Source of the DNA: Candidatus Saccharibacteria bacterium CPR2
Lineage (GTDB): Bacteria > Patescibacteriota > Saccharimonadia > Saccharimonadales > QWHN01
Reading direction: 5' to 3'
DNA length: 64,000 nucleotides
NCBI GenBank assembly: GCA_021404905.1
Contig: QWHN01000001.1
Span: forward strand, 2,162-66,161
Each line of letters opens with the position of its first letter. Position 1 is the stretch's first letter. Positions 3,163 through 48,816 of the stretch are shown piece by piece. The notes beneath the pieces are model-generated. The model worked only from the letters and a program-made list of their open reading frames with translations, made no database searches and was not told the origin of the DNA. Position numbers and translations under genes: made by a program.

Positions 3163-3181
3163 TTGGAGGGCCATGTGGGAT
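3163..3181. repeat. Second copy of the tRNA-Lys(CTT) 3' end (19-bp perfect direct repeat of 3334-3352)
   Basis: TTGGAGGGCCATGTGGGAT occurs at 3163-3181 and again at 3334-3352, which is inside and just past the tRNA gene. Confidence 0.9.
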
Positions 3182-3299
3182 GACGCGCCTTCGCGCTATT
3201 CCGTCGATCCAGTGCTCGAAATAAATTTCTGCGCGCTTCACTCCTTACGAACCCATCGCTATGCGATATTGGGTTAGAATATACTCAACAAATACTCCA

Positions 3300-3327
3300 A
3301 TTTCAAAATCCCTCCTTCAGAGGGATT
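3300..3327 (-). terminator. Intrinsic terminator-like hairpin after tRNA-Lys(CTT)
   Basis: Minus-strand sense AATCCCTC-tgaag-GAGGGATT followed by a T-run, 7 nt after the tRNA CCA end. Confidence 0.5.
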
Positions 3328-3334
3328 CAGAAAT

Positions 3335-3411
3335 TGGAGGGCCATGTGGGATTCGAACCCACGACACGCGGCTTAAGAGGCCGCTGCTCTAACCAACTGA
3401 GCTAATGGCCC
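3335..3411 (-). tRNA. tRNA-Lys (anticodon CTT), CCA encoded
   Basis: Reverse complement GGGCCATTAGCTCAGTTGGTTAGAGCAGCGGCCTCTTAAGCCGCGTGTCGTGGGTTCGAATCCCACATGGCCCTCCA. It has a 7-bp acceptor stem, anticodon loop CTCTTAA and T-loop TTCGAAT. Confidence 0.9.
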
Positions 3412-3516
3412 ACACTTCGCTCCGGTTTTACACCGGAGCTACGAGGGGCTATTTGTGCGAGGTTGGTTCTACCAACTGCTAAGCCCATCGAAGCTCGAGC
3501 GCAAGCGAGTGCGAAG
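3412..3516 (-). repeat. tRNA-Lys-associated 'U' element, copy 1 (directly upstream of tRNA-Lys(CTT))
   Basis: It shares ordered blocks CTTCGCA, AGCTTCG, GCCCCTCGTAG and CGAAGTG with 48148-48234. It contains the hairpin CTCCGG-tgtaaaa-CCGGAG. Confidence 0.6.
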
Positions 3517-3534
3517 TTGGGAGCTAATGGCCCT

Positions 3535-3648
3535 CGTCGGAATTCACTATCAGCCTCCGTTTGATCGAATATACTCACAAACTTCAGCTTCTCGTTATTC
3601 CTCCTCTCAATTAATCAAACAGCTTTGCTTGGTTTGATTAATTGTTTT
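3535..3648 (+). repeat. Modular ~110-nt tRNA-trailer element, copy 1 (homologous to 21576-21686, minus strand)
   Basis: Perfect 20-mer CGTCGGAATTCACTATCAGC (3535-3554), then a 30-nt variable block. Next comes a perfect 21-mer CAGCTTCTCGTTATTCCTCCT (3585-3605). A 13-bp hairpin CAATTAATCAAAC/GTTTGATTAATTG (3608-3644) plus TTTT follows. Confidence 0.8.
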
Positions 3649-3951
3649 AAAACTACCAGACCTCTTCCACTTATTTAAGAATCTGGTATTCCGGGAAGGG
3701 TAGCGGACTCTGTCATTTTCCGCTCTGAAACTTTATCACGTTACCCCTGTTTACGCAATAATTTCAGACTGGCTTATTTATGCAAAATTACGACCAATAA
3801 CAAGGAATTCAATGCTAGCCTCCACCCCTCTCATAACTATGTTCTAATGCGACATTATTACAAAAAATAGAAAATACCCGAGAATATTTAAGCATTATCT
3901 ACTTGCCTAATATTATAATTTTGTTATAATTTTGCAGAGAAAGGCACTAAT

Positions 3952-4164
3952 ATGGCACAAAAAGTAATTAAGATTGGTAGCTCTTTGGGCGTTACTATAC
4001 CCAAAAAGGAAGTCAGCGATCTTAATATTATAGCTGGCGATGAAGTGGAAGTAATAATTCGAAAAAAATTTAGCCGAGTTGCAAAACACGAAAAGCTACT
4101 TAAACAGCTGGAAGATTTTATGCACGTATACGATAAAGACTTAAAGAACTTGGCTAAAAGATAG
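3952..4164 (+). CDS. AbrB/MazE/SpoVT-type antitoxin (Phd-like partner of Doc)
   Basis: 70 aa with the swapped-hairpin motif IKIGSSLGVTIPKKEV. The stop overlaps the toxin GTG start (TAGTG). Confidence 0.8.
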   Translation: MAQKVIKIGSSLGVTIPKKEVSDLNIIAGDEVEVIIRKKFSRVAKHEKLLKQLEDFMHVYDKDLKNLAKR

Positions 4165-4547
4165 TGAAATATCTTGATGCAGAAGAAATTTTACTCATCC
4201 ATCATCAGCTAATTAAGCGCTTTGGTGGTTTACACGGCACGCGAAATTTAGAACAAATAAGATCTGTAGCTATAGCCCCAGCGCAACATGTTTTTGACAA
4301 TAAACAATATAAAAGTATTTTTGACAAAGCGTCGGTGTATGCTCGAAATATTATTCTAGATCACCCATTTTATGATGGGAATAAGCGAACCGGCATTACA
4401 ACCGCCATCATGTTTCTTATGAAAAATGACTACAAATTTAGCGCCCAACCCGGGGAAATTGAAGAATTCGCATTCAAAATTGCAGTCAACAAACTGGGTA
4501 TTAAAGAAATATCAACTTGGCTTGAGAAACACGTGTCCTCAGTTTAG
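4164..4547 (+). CDS. doc: Doc (death-on-curing) / Fic-family toxin
   Basis: Doc/Fic motif HPFYDGNKRTG. Size of 127 aa and position downstream of a small AbrB-type antitoxin fit the family. Confidence 0.9.
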   Translation: MKYLDAEEILLIHHQLIKRFGGLHGTRNLEQIRSVAIAPAQHVFDNKQYKSIFDKASVYARNIILDHPFYDGNKRTGITTAIMFLMKNDYKFSAQPGEIEEFAFKIAVNKLGIKEISTWLEKHVSSV

Positions 4548-6283: not shown

Positions 6284-7738
6284 TTAATCTAAGACATTCT
6301 CTCTTTTAAAACCAAGTTTGGTCTTTTTCCATAAAAATACATTTAAACTCAAGATTACAACGCAGCTTAAAATTAGGTACGAAGCATTGAATTTTAATTC
6401 TCCCTCTGCCCAAGGCAAACCAGCTAGCCAATCGGCAACTCGAATCATATATGTTAGCAACGCGTTAGCTGGCCAGCCAGCAAAATGTGCTAGCGGCGGA
6501 AAGATAGCCGCCACAATTCCGCCAATGAAGGTTAAAAGCATAGCCAAGGGAACAAAGGGTTGAATCAAAATATTTGAAATTAACGCCAGTGGCGAGTACT
6601 CACCGAATGTAAACGCGATAATCGGTAAAGTTAAAATTTGGGCTGAAATTGTTCCGATAAGCAAATGCCTTAGGAAGCCCGGTTCTTTTTCACCCCAAAA
6701 ATAATTATGGATTAAAGGCGCTAGAATTATAACGCCTCCGAAGGCCGCGAATGACAGATACCAACCAACATCGCCCCACACATAAGCCGGACTTAATAAA
6801 ACCGTCATAGCAGCTACAAAAACAATTAACACAACAGGGTTAATTTTTCGGCCGTAATACCAGGCAAGTAAACTTAAAACTGTCATGATTGAAGCGCGAA
6901 TCATGGATGTTCCAAAACCGCTAATTGATAAAAACGCGCCAATAAAGAATAGACTGGCAATAAGCGCTAAATATTTTGACACTTTCGACAGTGGACGCTT
7001 AATGTAACTAACTATCAATGACAGATGATAACCACTAGCAACAACCAAATGAATAAGCCCCAGCATTTTCAGCTCGTTACTAAAATCTTCAGATAAAAGT
7101 TGCTGCTGACCAACCAGATAACTCAGGCCCAATCCTGCTTGCTCTTTGGGTATAATCATTAATACTTTTCGCGAGAACCAATCTCTGATTTCTCTGCCAA
7201 TGTCACCATGCTTTATGTTTTCAACTTTGAGTAACTTAGCTCTGGAAATTGTCGCTGGAAAATTACCGAAACCGTTCCGAATTTCGCCTTCAATTTGCAA
7301 ATTATCACCACGCTTTATCTGATCTCGGGTGGACAAACTAACCCAGACATTGCCGCTCATTGGCATGTTATTAATTTTAATTTTGCTTAGATTAACACCT
7401 GTGGTTCCATTATTTTTCTCAGTGACATCGCTTGCTACTCGCCCCGTAAGGATTACCGTTTGGCCATAATATTGCCCGTACTGAGAAAAGGCGATTTGCG
7501 CGTTCGCGCCCCGCCAAAGACCAAGTAATATTCCACAGATTAATGCGACAGTCAACATCCATTTGTAACGCCAGATGGCAACTAAAATAAATAAAATGGC
7601 GGCAAGCAACAACCAAGGCAATGCGGCGAAATAAGTGGTTTTTGGATTTAGCGCTAGTGCCGTGCCAGTCAAAACTCCAGCCGATGTAACTGAGATGAAA
7701 TAAACTATATGTAAGCGCTGCTTCATGCTACGCGCCAC
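6284..7738 (-). CDS. comEC: ComEC/Rec2 DNA internalisation channel (competence domain; no beta-lactamase domain)
   Basis: 484-aa polytopic membrane protein with an N-terminal OB-like region (VILTGRVASDV...GDNLQIEGEI). Competence-domain pattern LSYLVGQQ...GLIHLVVASGYHLSLI. Confidence 0.85.
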   Translation of the reverse strand: MARSMKQRLHIVYFISVTSAGVLTGTALALNPKTTYFAALPWLLLAAILFILVAIWRYKWMLTVALICGILLGLWRGANAQIAFSQYGQYYGQTVILTGRVASDVTEKNNGTTGVNLSKIKINNMPMSGNVWVSLSTRDQIKRGDNLQIEGEIRNGFGNFPATISRAKLLKVENIKHGDIGREIRDWFSRKVLMIIPKEQAGLGLSYLVGQQQLLSEDFSNELKMLGLIHLVVASGYHLSLIVSYIKRPLSKVSKYLALIASLFFIGAFLSISGFGTSMIRASIMTVLSLLAWYYGRKINPVVLIVFVAAMTVLLSPAYVWGDVGWYLSFAAFGGVIILAPLIHNYFWGEKEPGFLRHLLIGTISAQILTLPIIAFTFGEYSPLALISNILIQPFVPLAMLLTFIGGIVAAIFPPLAHFAGWPANALLTYMIRVADWLAGLPWAEGELKFNASYLILSCVVILSLNVFLWKKTKLGFKRENVLD

Positions 7739-21562: not shown

Positions 21563-21575
21563 CTAATATTTCTAA

Positions 21576-21686
21576 CAAAGTTACAAACCAAGCGTTAGCT
21601 GTTTGTAACTTTGAAAGGAGGAATAACGAGAAGCTGGAGCAATAAAAAACATTTTTTATTGCAAAAGCTGATAGTGAATTCCGACG
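21576..21686 (-). repeat. Modular ~110-nt tRNA-trailer element, copy 2 (directly abuts the CCA end of tRNA-Gly)
   Basis: In minus-strand sense: CGTCGGAATTCACTATCAGC, then a 30-nt perfect hairpin GCAATAAAAAA/TTTTTTATTGC. CAGCTTCTCGTTATTCCTCCT follows, then the 13-bp hairpin CAAAGTTACAAAC/GTTTGTAACTTTG. Confidence 0.8.
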
Positions 21687-46974: not shown

Positions 46975-47700
46975 TTAGCCGTCAATAATATCAAAATTAC
47001 TATATACCTCTGTTACATCATCCAGGTCATCAAGGGCATTCATTAGCCTCATAACTTTCTCGGCAATCCCCTTATCGTTAATTGTAACAATATTTTTTGG
47101 CACATACGACAGTGATGCTTCCAAAACTTCAAGCCCAGTTGCTTTAAGACCATCCCGAACTTTAGCAAGTGCTTTGCCTTCTGTATAGACTATTAATTCT
47201 CCATCTTCTTCGTTTGCATCATCAGCACCAGAATCAAGCGCGCTTAAAATAGCTTCGTCCATACCATTCGTCACCTTTATGCGCACAACTCCCTTGCGTT
47301 CAAATTGGAAAGCCACCGCGCCAGTTTCTGCGATATTACCTCCGTTTTTACTAAACACGGTACGCACATCGGAATATGTTCTATTCTTGTTGTCGCTGGC
47401 ACACTGAACAATTACGGCTATACCGCCCGGCCCATAACCTTCATATGTCATTTCCTGAATCTGGGCGCCACCTAACTCTCCAGTTCCGCGCTTTATTGAC
47501 CGCTCAATATTGACATTTGGCATATTAGCCGTTTTTGCTTTTTCTATTGCCAACGCGAGGGTAGGGTTAAGATCTGGGTTGCCACCGCTCTTTGCGGCAA
47601 TTGCAATCGCATTGCCAAGCTTAGTGAAAAGCTGCCCACGCTTGGCGTCTGTAACGCCTTTTTTACGCTTGATTGTTGCCCATTTTGAATGCCCTGACAT
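46975..47700 (-). CDS. yebC: YebC/PmpR-family transcriptional regulator
   Basis: MSGHSKWATIKRKKG...NMPNVNIERSIKRG. Confidence 0.93.
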   Translation of the reverse strand: MSGHSKWATIKRKKGVTDAKRGQLFTKLGNAIAIAAKSGGNPDLNPTLALAIEKAKTANMPNVNIERSIKRGTGELGGAQIQEMTYEGYGPGGIAVIVQCASDNKNRTYSDVRTVFSKNGGNIAETGAVAFQFERKGVVRIKVTNGMDEAILSALDSGADDANEEDGELIVYTEGKALAKVRDGLKATGLEVLEASLSYVPKNIVTINDKGIAEKVMRLMNALDDLDDVTEVYSNFDIIDG

Positions 47701-47890
47701 AGAAACTCTCCTCGTAACTTCTGTTCTTATAACTGAAGTTTAGTATAGCAAAATATAAATAACTTCAATTGAAGCAATTAACAATAATCGGATTGACTTA
47801 TCTGTTAAACTAGTGTTAATTTATACAAGCAAATGCCTCTCAAAGACATAATGCCCATGGAGGCCTCAACGTAAACCAAAACCTGTTTAC

Positions 47891-47967
47891 GGGCCTGTAG
47901 CTCAGTTGGTTAGAGCAGCGGCCTTTTAAGCCGCGTGTCGTGGGTTCGAATCCCACCAGGCCCTCCA
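47891..47967 (+). tRNA. tRNA-Lys (anticodon TTT), CCA encoded
   Basis: GGGCCTGTAGCTCAGTTGGTTAGAGCAGCGGCCTTTTAAGCCGCGTGTCGTGGGTTCGAATCCCACCAGGCCCTCCA. Confidence 0.9.
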
Positions 47968-47975
47968 CGCCAAGA

Positions 47976-47999
47976 CCCGACCCTTGTGGTCGGGTTTTT
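47976..47999 (+). terminator. Rho-independent terminator after tRNA-Lys(TTT)
   Basis: CCCGACC-cttgt-GGTCGGG followed by TTTTT. Confidence 0.6.
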
Positions 48000-48127
48000 G
48001 CGTGGTATGTTTTGCGTGATTTGGTTCCACGACGCAGATTTTCCGCGAGAAAAATATGCAAGTCGTGGGTCGGTCATGACGAACTCTCGCAGGAGTTCAC
48101 TCCGAGAAAGTGAGGAAATGTGCGTTT

Positions 48128-48148
48128 ATCCCACCAGGCCCTCCACGC
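48128..48148. repeat. Second copy of the tRNA-Lys(TTT) 3' end (21-bp perfect direct repeat of 47950-47970)
   Basis: ATCCCACCAGGCCCTCCACGC is present at both positions. Confidence 0.9.
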
Positions 48149-48234
48149 TTCGCATAAAGCTTCGTGTGGCAGGCCATTTGGTCTGTCACATTTTTTATCG
48201 AAGTGTGCCCCTCGTAGTTTTAACGAAGTGGGGC
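48148..48234 (+). repeat. tRNA-Lys-associated 'U' element, copy 2
   Basis: Ordered blocks CTTCGCA, AGCTTCG, GCCCCTCGTAG and CGAAGTG are shared with 3412-3516 (minus strand). Confidence 0.6.
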
Positions 48235-48303
48235 TAAAATGATTGAATGTATTATGTATATCTTTTGAAACTTTGTGATAATACTATAGGTTACCCCTAT
48301 AAT

Positions 48304-48816
48304 TCACCCTCTGCCACGTTTTTTGGAATGCTTGTCTAACTTTCGTTGACGTTCGTGTTCATGCATTAAAATATCAAATACCGCGATTGTGATGGTAATA
48401 GCGATTATCAAGACCTCAAAATATCTCAGTTGGCCATAAACATAAGATTGGGATTTGATATTTTCCGTAATATTAAGAGGTAAGTTTTGCAAAACAAGCA
48501 ATCCTGAAAGCAAGGCAAAGGCTATTGAAGGCACTATATGTTGCAAAAATCTTGAAGACTGATACCCTCTAAATCTTATTAAAATCACCAGAGCAGGCAG
48601 CAGAATAATTGCTATTGTCACTATAGTTGTAAGTGGAACGCTGGAGTCATCCAAACCCCTTGCTCTTAGAAAGTTAACGACTTCGTCCGTTAATAGATCG
48701 CTCAATACATAACCGGCTGTGAGTCCCAATATAGCCAAGGATATGTTCGTTCTCAGTAATAGACAAAGCAGAGCAATGCCGCCTAGTGAAATTGCCATTA
48801 TGACATCAGCATTCAT
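48304..48816 (-). CDS. Polytopic membrane protein, function unknown
   Basis: 170 aa, 5 TM helices, basic C-terminal tail. Confidence 0.5.
   Translation of the reverse strand: MNADVIMAISLGGIALLCLLLRTNISLAILGLTAGYVLSDLLTDEVVNFLRARGLDDSSVPLTTIVTIAIILLPALVILIRFRGYQSSRFLQHIVPSIAFALLSGLLVLQNLPLNITENIKSQSYVYGQLRYFEVLIIAITITIAVFDILMHEHERQRKLDKHSKKRGRG

What the first reader, a model, noticed from the sequence alone, without database searches (positions are those of the whole stretch)
3412..3516. Second repeat family ('U' element) links the two tRNA-Lys loci in different positions
The ~105 nt directly upstream of tRNA-Lys(CTT) (3412-3516, minus-strand sense) are collinear with the ~87 nt that follow the distal 3'-end copy at the tRNA-Lys(TTT) locus (48148-48234). 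The shared blocks occur in the same order: CTTCGCA, AGCTTCG, TTGGT, the 11-mer GCCCCTCGTAG, and CGAAGTG(T)GGG. Indels fall within hairpin-forming inserts (CTCCGG-tgtaaaa-CCGGAG is present only in copy 1). In copy 1 the element runs straight into the tRNA 5' end and is preceded by a 13-nt copy of that 5' end (GGGCCATTAGCTC; plus-strand 3521-3533). In copy 2 it is preceded by the tRNA 3'-end copy and followed by GGGGCTA, possibly a vestigial tRNA 5' end. In both copies the 5' CTTCG-containing segment can pair with the 3' CGAAG segment. Candidate explanations are decayed tandem tRNA-Lys units, a conserved tRNA leader, or recombination scars.
Basis: seen in the sequence. Interest (0 to 1): 0.55.

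Follow-up and report, generated by a model that had tools for sequence, protein, structure and literature searches.

The report
Hairpin spacer duplicated beside two tRNA-Lys genes
Two short, hairpin-rich non-coding stretches next to the two lysine tRNA genes of this Saccharibacteria genome are probably diverged copies of one spacer left by partial duplication or recombination at tRNA genes. This is an ordinary kind of genomic scar, although it sits among conserved structured RNAs that are more interesting.

Summary
Statistical support for U1-U2 homology is moderate. nhmmer and blastn find only the 11-mer. A chain of exact blocks of at least 7 nt makes the two copies reciprocal best hits in the window (32 against 22-24). 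Looser statistics remove that margin.

U1 is best read as an insertion. In relatives, a conserved structured leader RNA runs straight into tRNA-Lys. Here the same leader runs into a 13-nt tRNA stub, then 109 nt of U1, then the intact tRNA. Two distant Saccharibacteria have the same layout (stubs of 18 and 22 nt), but their inserts are unrelated to U. About 38 loci from other taxa also carry a tRNA 5' stub upstream of an intact tRNA.

U is therefore not a conserved leader, and it shows none of the hallmarks of a mobile element. It is most likely a species-specific spacer copied between the two tRNA-Lys loci by partial duplication or recombination. U2's first hairpin is the only terminator-like site the scan reported in the tRNA-Lys(TTT) region. 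No Rfam family matches.

The interest of U itself is low to moderate. The leader and downstream 'D' RNA families seen in passing deserve separate study.

The parts
3412..3520 (-). U1. A 109-nt hairpin-rich insert between the 13-nt tRNA 5' stub and the intact tRNA-Lys(CTT). It contains a degenerate copy of the tRNA 5' end (GGGCTTAGCAGTTGGTAGA). Its 3' part is hairpin B (GCCCCTCGTAG..CGAAGTGT), which pairs with the first bases of the tRNA.
   Evidence: Sequence. Fold of 3412-3533 (the 13-nt stub plus U1): -49.4 kcal/mol, z = -3.7. Similarity to the tRNA 5' end reached by 1 of 500 shuffles.
3521..3533 (-). 'a'. An exact 13-nt copy of the tRNA-Lys(CTT) 5' end (GGGCCATTAGCTC), fused directly to the conserved leader.
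   Evidence: The leader/stub junction is compared with relatives.
3534..3663 (-). Conserved structured leader RNA (leader family). In the relatives L029 and L031 it runs directly into tRNA-Lys.
   Evidence: nhmmer E = 1.2e-20. Pairwise z = 3.5-7 against the leaders of relatives. 20 of 28 pairs show compensatory changes. No Rfam match.
3335..3411 (-). tRNA-Lys(CTT).
3182..3334 (-). Post-CCA hairpin plus the 'D' element, a conserved structured segment downstream of tRNA-Lys.
   Evidence: E = 4.4e-14.
3163..3181 (-). 'c'. A copy of the tRNA-Lys(CTT) 3' end (ATCCCACATGGCCCTCCAA).
47891..47967 (+). tRNA-Lys(TTT).
47968..48127 (+). Post-CCA hairpin plus the D' element. With the c' copy included, it is 75.8% identical to the D_B element of L029.
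48128..48148 (+). c'. A copy of the tRNA-Lys(TTT) 3' end (ATCCCACCAGGCCCTCCACGC).
48148..48234 (+). U2. The 87-nt paralogue of U1, made of hairpin A (terminator-like, 48164-48191 plus a T run) and hairpin B (48207-48234), and ending in GGGC.
   Evidence: (fold of 48146-48240: -42 kcal/mol, z = -6.3).
21566..21686 (+). Second copy of the leader RNA. It ends exactly against the 3' end of tRNA-Gly(TCC) on the opposite strand. It is context, not part of U.
   Evidence: (E = 1.3e-6).

Best explanation
U1 and U2 are two diverged copies of one non-coding, hairpin-forming spacer that lies between tRNA-Lys-derived ends. On the left is a 3'-end-like CTCC(C)A. On the right is a GGGC(C) 5' end. They are by-products of partial duplication or recombination at tRNA-Lys genes in this species. 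They are neither an autonomous element nor a conserved RNA.

Shown:
- U1 plus a 13-nt duplicate of the tRNA 5' end interrupts a junction (conserved leader RNA | tRNA-Lys) that is intact in relatives. U1 is therefore an insertion or the remnant of a duplication.
- U2 sits beyond the displaced 3'-end copy of the other tRNA-Lys locus.

Inferred:
- Either an ancestral 'tRNA-Lys - U - tRNA-Lys' pair lost one member at each locus, or microhomology-mediated copying (CTC on the left, GGGC on the right) moved the spacer between the loci.
- Today U1 is transcribed from the leader's promoter as extra 5' leader and is removed when RNase P matures tRNA-Lys(CTT). It has no T run, so it does not terminate transcription.
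- U2's hairpin A, with its T run, terminates the tRNA-Lys(TTT)-D'-c' transcript. U2 lies in the gap between that unit and the convergent ORF at 48304-48816.
For: - The blocks and their coordinates are confirmed.
- U1 and U2 are reciprocal best hits by a chain of at least 7-nt blocks, 32 against 22-24. Shuffle z = 5.4.
- The 13-nt repeat is exact and occurs only at these two places.
- The leader family is conserved and fused to tRNA-Lys in L029 and L031. In the window, L096 and L030 it is fused to stubs of 13, 18 and 22 nt, followed by inserts of 109, 103 and 228 nt.
- Those inserts are unrelated to U (z about -0.4).
- U1 contains a degenerate copy of the tRNA 5' end.
- About 38 distinct loci in other taxa show a tRNA 5' stub, roughly 60-130 nt and then an intact tRNA.
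- U2's hairpin A is the only terminator-like site the scan reports there. U1 has none.
- No integrase or transposase lies nearby.
- The Islander method accepts a 5' fragment upstream, or a 3' fragment downstream, as a real configuration (PMC4383910). tRNA gene fragments are pervasive (PMC9897764).
Against: - Standard similarity tools do not link U1 and U2.
- With looser statistics, unrelated window segments score as high.
- The 13-nt stub is exact while U1 and U2 are heavily diverged. This is awkward for one old event, unless the stub is constrained or the events are separate.
- The junction bases CCAACT are also the exact reverse complement of tRNA positions 14-19. That hints at a fold-back event rather than a simple deletion.
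- No intermediate relatives exist to date or orient the event. The nearest YebC homologues are either 99-100% or at most 70% identical.
- GC skew gives no sign of a recent inversion between the two loci.
Confidence: 0.5

Rival explanations
1. The U1-U2 resemblance is chance. U1 and U2 would then be unrelated hairpin-rich flanks, U1 being an insert in the tRNA leader and U2 a pair of terminator hairpins. CTTCG/CGAAG motifs recur simply because both sequences are palindromic.
For: nhmmer and blastn find only an 11-mer at E about 2-3. 19 of 1961 window segments match the strict score. Unrelated 140-nt segments tie under gap-tolerant scoring, and under chaining of at least 6-nt blocks.
Against: The two are reciprocal unique best hits with blocks of at least 7 nt, 32 against 22-24. 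None of 500 to 1000 shuffles reaches the observed score. The blocks are collinear and in the same orientation relative to the tRNAs. Hairpin B is rebuilt in both copies, including its pairing with GGGC.
Confidence: 0.2
2. U is a functional structured leader or processing element. Hairpin B (GCCCC-UCGUAG...CGAAGUG-GGGC) would sequester the first bases of tRNA-Lys to control RNase P processing. Alternatively, the 13-nt stub plus U1 would provide the processing site that releases the upstream leader RNA.
For: The folds are strongly stable (z = -3.7 and -6.3). Hairpin B is conserved between the copies, with an insertion confined to its loop. The stub next to the leader is exact in three species.
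Against: U2 is not followed by a tRNA. No U blocks occur in any relative. The inserts at the same position in L096 and L030 are unrelated in sequence.
Confidence: 0.13
3. U1 and U2 are scars, or miniature derivatives, of site-specific integrative elements that target tRNA-Lys. The 13-nt stub and the 3'-end copies would be att-site duplicates, and an integrase encoded elsewhere would have moved the elements.
For: The fragment configuration is the one expected for integration: a 5' fragment upstream and 3' fragments downstream. L029 has 3' units stacked in tandem. One strain variant (L046) diverges exactly at the tRNA 3' end.
Against: There is no integrase in the neighbourhood. The inserts are only 100-230 nt. 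The two viral-contig scans found no U-like sequence and no Saccharibacteria-like tRNA-Lys 3'-end copy. The breakpoints among 5' stubs in metagenomes are spread over 13-55 nt rather than falling at one site.
Confidence: 0.1
4. U is a MITE-like non-autonomous transposon with short terminal inverted repeats (CTTCGC/GCGAAG).
For: There are two copies. U1 folds as a rod-like hairpin. U1 is flanked by a 13-nt direct repeat.
Against: The inverted termini are only 5-6 bp. CCAA separates the 13-nt repeat from the terminus. U2 has no flanking duplication. There are only two diverged copies in 64 kb, and no third copy. Related loci contain none, and the viral contigs gave only chance-like pattern hits.
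Confidence: 0.05

Closest known systems
Displaced tRNA-gene fragments next to an intact tRNA gene (genomic-island or prophage att duplications; Islander principle, PMC4383910; tRNA gene fragments, PMC9897764)
   Same: There is an intact tRNA gene with an exact partial copy in the same orientation. The 5' fragment is upstream and the 3' fragments are downstream.
   Different: The DNA between fragment and gene is only 109 nt. It is non-coding and has no integrase. The same spacer recurs at the other tRNA-Lys locus in a different position.
Partial tandem duplication of tRNA genes followed by decay (tRNA pseudogenes and remnants)
   Same: There are several tRNA-derived pieces: an exact 13-mer, a degenerate 5' copy inside U1, and the 3'-end copies. 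The spacer is bounded by tRNA-like ends.
   Different: The boundary between the exact stub and the unrelated sequence is sharp, which indicates a breakpoint rather than gradual decay. No full second tRNA survives.
Rho-independent terminators and external transcribed spacers of tRNA operons
   Same: U2's hairpin A is a 12-bp stem with a T run. It lies at the end of the tRNA-Lys(TTT) unit, in a convergent intergenic gap. U1 is most simply an extra 5' external spacer.
   Different: U1 lacks the T run. The homology between a 5' spacer and a 3' spacer at different loci is unusual.
MITEs and REP-like palindromic repeats
   Same: U is short, non-coding and hairpin-forming, and it is present more than once.
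   Different: It has no convincing terminal inverted repeats, no target duplications at both copies, and no multi-copy family.

Membership tests
Integrated genomic island / prophage att-site fragment | Intact tRNA gene plus a cognate fragment in the same orientation, with the 5' fragment upstream or the 3' fragment downstream | tested here: met
   The 13-nt 5' stub lies upstream of tRNA-Lys(CTT). 3'-end copies lie downstream of both Lys tRNAs. The configuration rule comes from PMC4383910.
Integrated genomic island / prophage att-site fragment | Integrase gene and kilobase-scale element between the fragment and the intact gene | tested here: not met
   Only 109 nt separate the stub from the tRNA. 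The neighbouring genes are MazE, Fic, a lamin-tail-domain protein, a PQ-loop protein and a SpoU methylase, with no integrase.
MITE / non-autonomous transposon | Terminal inverted repeats of about 10 bp or more | tested here: not met
   The inverted termini are CTTCGC/GCGAAG (6 bp) in U1 and CTTCG/CGAAG (5 bp) in U2.
MITE / non-autonomous transposon | Target-site duplication flanking each copy | tested here: not met
   In U1 the 13-nt repeat is offset from the terminus by CCAA. U2 is flanked by CCACG and GGGCTA, with no repeat.
MITE / non-autonomous transposon | Multiple similar copies dispersed in the genome or in relatives | tested here: not met
   The 64-kb window holds no third copy. The 11 related loci contain none. 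The viral-contig scan gave only chance-like pattern hits. The rest of the genome was not available.
Conserved tRNA 5' leader / known RNA family | Sequence or structure conserved at orthologous loci of related genomes, or a match to an Rfam model | tested here: not met
   No U blocks occur at tRNA-Lys loci of relatives. The L096 and L030 inserts are unrelated to U. Rfam has no match. The conserved leader is a different segment, 3534-3663.
Rho-independent terminator (U2 hairpin A) | G+C-rich stem-loop followed by a T run | tested here: met
   At 48164-48191 there is a 12-bp stem with 6 G-C pairs and a 4-nt loop, followed by TTTTTAT. It is the only terminator-like site the scan reported in 47700-48350. 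U1 has none.
Decayed tandem tRNA gene copy | Recognisable tRNA-derived sequence in the proper order within the remnant | tested here: inconclusive
   The 13-mer is exact. Inside U1, GGGC--TTAG--CAGTTGG-TAGA resembles tRNA positions 1-24, and 1 of 500 shuffles reaches that score. In U2, GGCCATTTGGTCTGT is marginal, with 24 of 500 shuffles reaching it. No anticodon-arm or T-arm remnants lie between the stub and U1.

The most novel reading that the evidence does not exclude
U1 and its 13-nt stub may be one instance of a lineage-wide architecture at Saccharibacteria tRNA-Lys genes. The order would be: structured leader RNA, tRNA 5' stub, hairpin insert of 100-230 nt, tRNA-Lys, long hairpin pairing the CUCCA end, structured D RNA, tRNA 3' stub. 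Such an architecture could reflect miniature integrative elements that target both ends of tRNA-Lys. Alternatively, two unrecognised structured RNAs (leader and D) could use tRNA stubs as processing or end-definition signals. The second leader copy, which ends precisely against the antisense 3' end of tRNA-Gly, fits precise joining at mature tRNA termini.
Probability: 0.15. Interest if true: 0.65.

Novelty: new member of a known kind. Interest (0 to 1): 0.3.

Why it matters
U itself matters little. It documents that the two tRNA-Lys loci of this reduced genome have exchanged or duplicated flanking sequence, and that tRNA termini act as breakpoints there.

The practical value is for annotation. 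The 13-nt and 18-21-nt tRNA stubs and the U hairpins should not be mistaken for genes, for att sites of a live element, or for a conserved riboswitch-like leader.

The context is worth more than the finding:
- Two conserved, covarying RNA families flank tRNA-Lys, and neither has an Rfam model.
- The leader | 5'-stub | insert | tRNA layout recurs in three distant Saccharibacteria.
- tRNA 5' stubs lie upstream of intact tRNAs in many other taxa.

If these reflect a specific mechanism, it would be a new facet of tRNA-gene biology in candidate-phyla-radiation (CPR) bacteria.

Tried and rejected
- **Rfam.** Gathering-threshold and permissive scans of both loci and of the second leader copy returned only tRNAs and noise.
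- **Viral contigs, U pattern.** GCCCCTCGTAG..CGAAGTG gave 20 hits, all chance-like and in G+C-rich coding DNA. L016 looked similar, but it lies in a coding region with no tRNA.
- **Viral contigs, tRNA-Lys 3'-end copy.** There were four hits, none Saccharibacteria-like. L053 and L056 carry an attP-like ATCCCACAAGGCCCTCCA in a G+C-rich phage.
- **Closer relatives through neighbouring proteins.** The same-species contigs are identical or break inside the tRNA. The next relatives have at most 70% YebC identity and no tRNA next to YebC. Conservation at intermediate distance therefore could not be tested.
- **Leader and D as one family.** I suspected this by eye, but the pairwise tests reject it (z at most 2.3). 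U also matches neither profile.
- **Inversion between the two inverted tRNA-Lys genes.** This would place U1 and U2 in direct orientation around a single locus. GC skew shows no switch at 3.4 or 47.9 kb, so the result is inconclusive.
- **Promoter inside U1.** None was found. The only promoter-like site on the tRNA strand lies inside D (3306-3278).
- **Reading the CCAA after the stub as a tRNA CCA end.** This is possible. However, CCAACT is also the exact reverse complement of tRNA positions 14-19, so the junction remains ambiguous.

Full report
**Setting**

The window comes from a Saccharibacteria (TM7, candidate phyla radiation) genome. An exact-pattern scan with the core of its tRNA-Lys found 11 loci. 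Nine are titled Candidatus Saccharibacteria or Saccharimonadales, one 'Patescibacteria group bacterium' and one simply 'bacterium'. The YebC protein of the window is identical to one that NCBI names from 'Candidatus Saccharibacteria bacterium C...'.

ARAGORN and Rfam place tRNA-Lys(CTT) at 3335-3411(-) and tRNA-Lys(TTT) at 47891-47967(+). Five other tRNAs lie between them.

**Checking the observation**

- The 13-mer GGGCCATTAGCTC occurs only at 3521-3533(-) and at the tRNA 5' end.
- The exact blocks are CTTCGCA, AGCTTCG, GCCCCTCGTAG and CGAAGTG. They lie in the same order in 3412-3520(-) (U1, 109 nt) and 48148-48234(+) (U2, 87 nt), and each copy is followed by GGGC.
- U2 directly follows a 21-nt copy of the tRNA-Lys(TTT) 3' end.
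- Only the two Lys tRNAs have such end copies.

The folds differ between the copies:
- The stub-plus-U1 stretch (3412-3533) folds into one long imperfect hairpin closed by CTTCGC/GCGAAG (-49.4 kcal/mol, z = -3.7).
- The U2 stretch (48146-48240) forms two hairpins (-42 kcal/mol, z = -6.3).
- Hairpin A is a 12-bp stem followed by TTTTTAT.
- Hairpin B is GCCCCTCGTAG-TTTTAA-CGAAGTG-GGGC. It is rebuilt in U1 with an extra CTCCGG/CCGGAG hairpin inserted in its loop. There its closing GGGC is the first four bases of the tRNA.

**Is the similarity more than chance?**

The answer depends on the test, and I report every result:

| Test | Result |
|---|---|
| Strict local alignment | Only the 11-mer; 19 of 1961 window segments do as well |
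| nhmmer, blastn | U1 and U2 not connected beyond the 11-mer |
| Gap-tolerant scoring, cores | z = 5.4; 0 of 500 dinucleotide shuffles |
| Gap-tolerant scoring, with flanks | 0 of 1000 shuffles; 0 of 2928 window segments |
| Systematic scan of 140-nt segments | Unrelated segments tie with the U cores |
| Chain of exact blocks of at least 7 nt | U1-U2 = 32, reciprocal best in the window; next best 22 and 24 |
| Chain of exact blocks of at least 6 nt | Margin vanishes |

The best alignment has 65 identities in 71 aligned columns, split into 14 blocks. The hit also falls in the flank of the other tRNA-Lys, in the same orientation, with both ends on tRNA-derived sequence. Taking this together, I put the probability of true homology at about 0.7-0.8.

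**What U1 is**

In relatives, a conserved leader of about 120-150 nt runs directly into the tRNA-Lys 5' end...ACTCCGACGA|GGGCC in L029 and L031. The same leader is present in the window at 3534-3663(-), but here it runs into the 13-nt stub. U1 follows the stub, and the intact tRNA follows U1.

The leader is a real family:
- Pairwise z values against the leaders of relatives are 3-10.
- nhmmer E values are 1e-20 to 1e-26.
- 20 of 28 predicted pairs show compensatory changes.
- Rfam has no match.

U1 plus one copy of the 13-mer is therefore extra DNA relative to the ancestral leader|tRNA junction.

The same layout exists in two distant Saccharibacteria:
- L096 (tRNA-Lys CTT) has an 18-nt stub and a 103-nt insert.
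- L030 (tRNA-Lys TTT) has a 22-nt stub and a 228-nt insert.

Their inserts are unrelated to U1 or U2 (z about -0.4). U is therefore species-specific, while the architecture recurs.

After removing SAR11-type tandem tRNAs, about 38 distinct loci from other taxa remain. Each has an exact 5' stub of 13-55 nt upstream of an intact tRNA. Several inserts contain a reverse complement of at least 9 nt of the tRNA 5' region.

Partial tRNA copies beside intact genes are a known and pervasive phenomenon (PMC9897764). The Islander method accepts 5' fragments upstream and 3' fragments downstream as genuine configurations (PMC4383910).

Inside U1 there is a second, degenerate copy of tRNA positions 1-24. 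Only 1 of 500 shuffles reaches its score.

**What U2 is**

U2 lies in the convergent gap between the tRNA-Lys(TTT) unit and the ORF at 48304-48816(-). Its hairpin A is the only terminator-like site the scan reported in 47700-48350. It pairs back onto the CCACG end of the 3'-end copy, as the hairpins after each tRNA-Lys pair with CTCCA. U1 has no T run and no terminator call. That is what a segment must look like if it has to be read through to reach the tRNA.

**Best explanation**

U is a spacer bounded by tRNA-Lys-derived ends that has been copied between the two loci by partial duplication or recombination.

Two origins are possible:
- An ancestral tRNA-Lys - U - tRNA-Lys pair lost one member at each locus.
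- Microhomology-mediated copying (CTC and GGGC at the junctions) moved the spacer from one locus to the other.

Its present roles are probably incidental. U1 is extra 5' leader removed during maturation. U2 supplies the terminator.

The insertion status of U1 and the terminator-like nature of hairpin A are shown by the data. The direction and mechanism of copying, and the transcription and processing of U1, are inferred.

**Weak points**

- The stub is exact while U1 and U2 are very diverged.
- The junction CCAACT could be the tRNA CCA end, or it could be an inverted copy of positions 14-19.
- No genomes of intermediate distance exist. YebC homologues are either 99-100% or at most 70% identical. 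The nearest ones lack the tRNA at this position.

**Rivals**

- Chance similarity: about 0.2.
- A functional processing or regulatory hairpin: about 0.13. U2 lacks a tRNA, and there is no conservation in relatives.
- Scars or miniature derivatives of integrative elements: about 0.1. There is no integrase, and the two viral scans found no U-like sequence and no Saccharibacteria-like 3'-end copy.
- A MITE: about 0.05. The termini are 5-6 bp, U2 has no target duplication, and there is no third copy.

**Context noticed along the way**

- Downstream of tRNA-Lys, in the window and in L029, L033, L034 and L036, lies a conserved 'D' element that ends in a copy of the tRNA 3' end. It has E values of 1e-14 to 1e-22, and 16 of 33 pairs are compensatory.
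- The window's D' region with its c' copy is 75.8% identical to the L029 unit, although YebC is only 59% identical between the two genomes.
- A second leader copy at 21566-21686(+) ends exactly against the 3' end of tRNA-Gly on the other strand.
- One strain variant (L046) keeps D'-c'-U2 but diverges exactly at the tRNA 3' end.

These observations suggest that tRNA termini are preferred junctions in this lineage. They are the basis of the more novel reading, which I rate at 0.15.

**Verdict**

The novelty class is 'new member of a known kind', and the interest is 0.3.

Noticed in passing
window 3534-3663(-) and 21566-21686(+); L029 962-1103(-), L031 3972-4098(+), L096 8910-9038(+), L030 3607-3749(-): A conserved structured 'leader' RNA of about 120-140 nt lies upstream of tRNA-Lys. 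It has hairpin H1, the motif AGGAGGA..GCGAGAAGCUG, a variable hairpin, and ends in ..CUCCGACGA. 20 of 28 pairs show compensatory changes, and Rfam has no match. The second window copy is not next to a tRNA-Lys. It ends exactly against the 3' end of tRNA-Gly(TCC) on the opposite strand.
   Followed up: partly
window 3163-3334(-) and 47968-48148(+); L029 535-889(-), L033 518-682(-), L034 6391-6549(+) and 4282-4350(+), L036 3425-3583(-): A conserved 'D' element lies downstream of tRNA-Lys and ends in an 18-21-nt copy of the tRNA 3' end. That copy matches the resident tRNA's acceptor variant in most genomes, but not in L033. 16 of 33 pairs show compensatory changes, including a small hairpin CAG-GRAR-NNNN-YUYC-GAG. 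The window's D'-c' region is 75.8% identical to the L029 unit, although the proteins are only about 60% identical. It could be a structured RNA or a miniature integrative element. Rfam has no match.
   Followed up: partly
window 3295-3340(-), 47963-48005(+), and the same position in L029, L033, L034, L036 and L096: Every tRNA-Lys is followed by a long hairpin whose 5' arm includes the tRNA's own CTCCA end. The hairpin has many compensatory changes between genomes. Its T run is itself base-paired, so it is not a plain terminator.
   Followed up: partly
L046 1262-1400 (SRR28563254) against window 47963: This contig has the same 170-aa protein and a 99.7% identical U2-c'-D' region, but it diverges exactly at the TCCA end of tRNA-Lys(TTT) and continues into a methyltransferase gene. 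It is either a strain with something integrated at the tRNA 3' end or an assembly chimera at the repeat.
   Followed up: no
window 6284-7738 (ComEC) and 46975-47700 (YebC); L059, L060, L181-L184: In the six nearest relatives examined (YebC 67-70% identical), ComEC and YebC are adjacent with no tRNA between them. In the window they are 39 kb apart, and each sits beside one of the two inverted tRNA-Lys loci. The rearrangement breakpoints therefore coincide with the tRNA-Lys loci. GC skew gave no clear sign of a recent inversion.
   Followed up: partly
L061-L180 (metagenome contigs), e.g. L103, L138, L141, L174, L165, L085: About 38 distinct loci from other taxa have an exact tRNA 5' fragment (13-55 nt), then 57-128 nt, then the intact tRNA (Met/Ile/Lys types). 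Several inserts contain a 9-14-nt reverse complement of the tRNA 5' region, so the stub can form a long hairpin just upstream of the real tRNA. Some of the downstream tRNAs appear to carry an insertion directly after the CAT anticodon, possibly an intron.
   Followed up: partly
L053 1818-1835, L056 2078-2095 (IMG/VR): Two related G+C-rich viral contigs carry ATCCCACAAGGCCCTCCA outside any tRNA, followed by a terminator-like hairpin. This looks like an attP for a tRNA-Lys-like 3' end of some other host.
   Followed up: no
window 3278-3306(-): A promoter-like site (TTGAAA-17-TATATT, 10 of 12 matches) lies inside the post-tRNA hairpin, just upstream of the D element's first hairpin. D-c might therefore be its own transcription unit.
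   Followed up: no
window 3952-4547(+): A MazE-like antitoxin and a Fic/Doc toxin pair lies directly upstream of the tRNA-Lys(CTT) leader, transcribed divergently from it.
   Followed up: no
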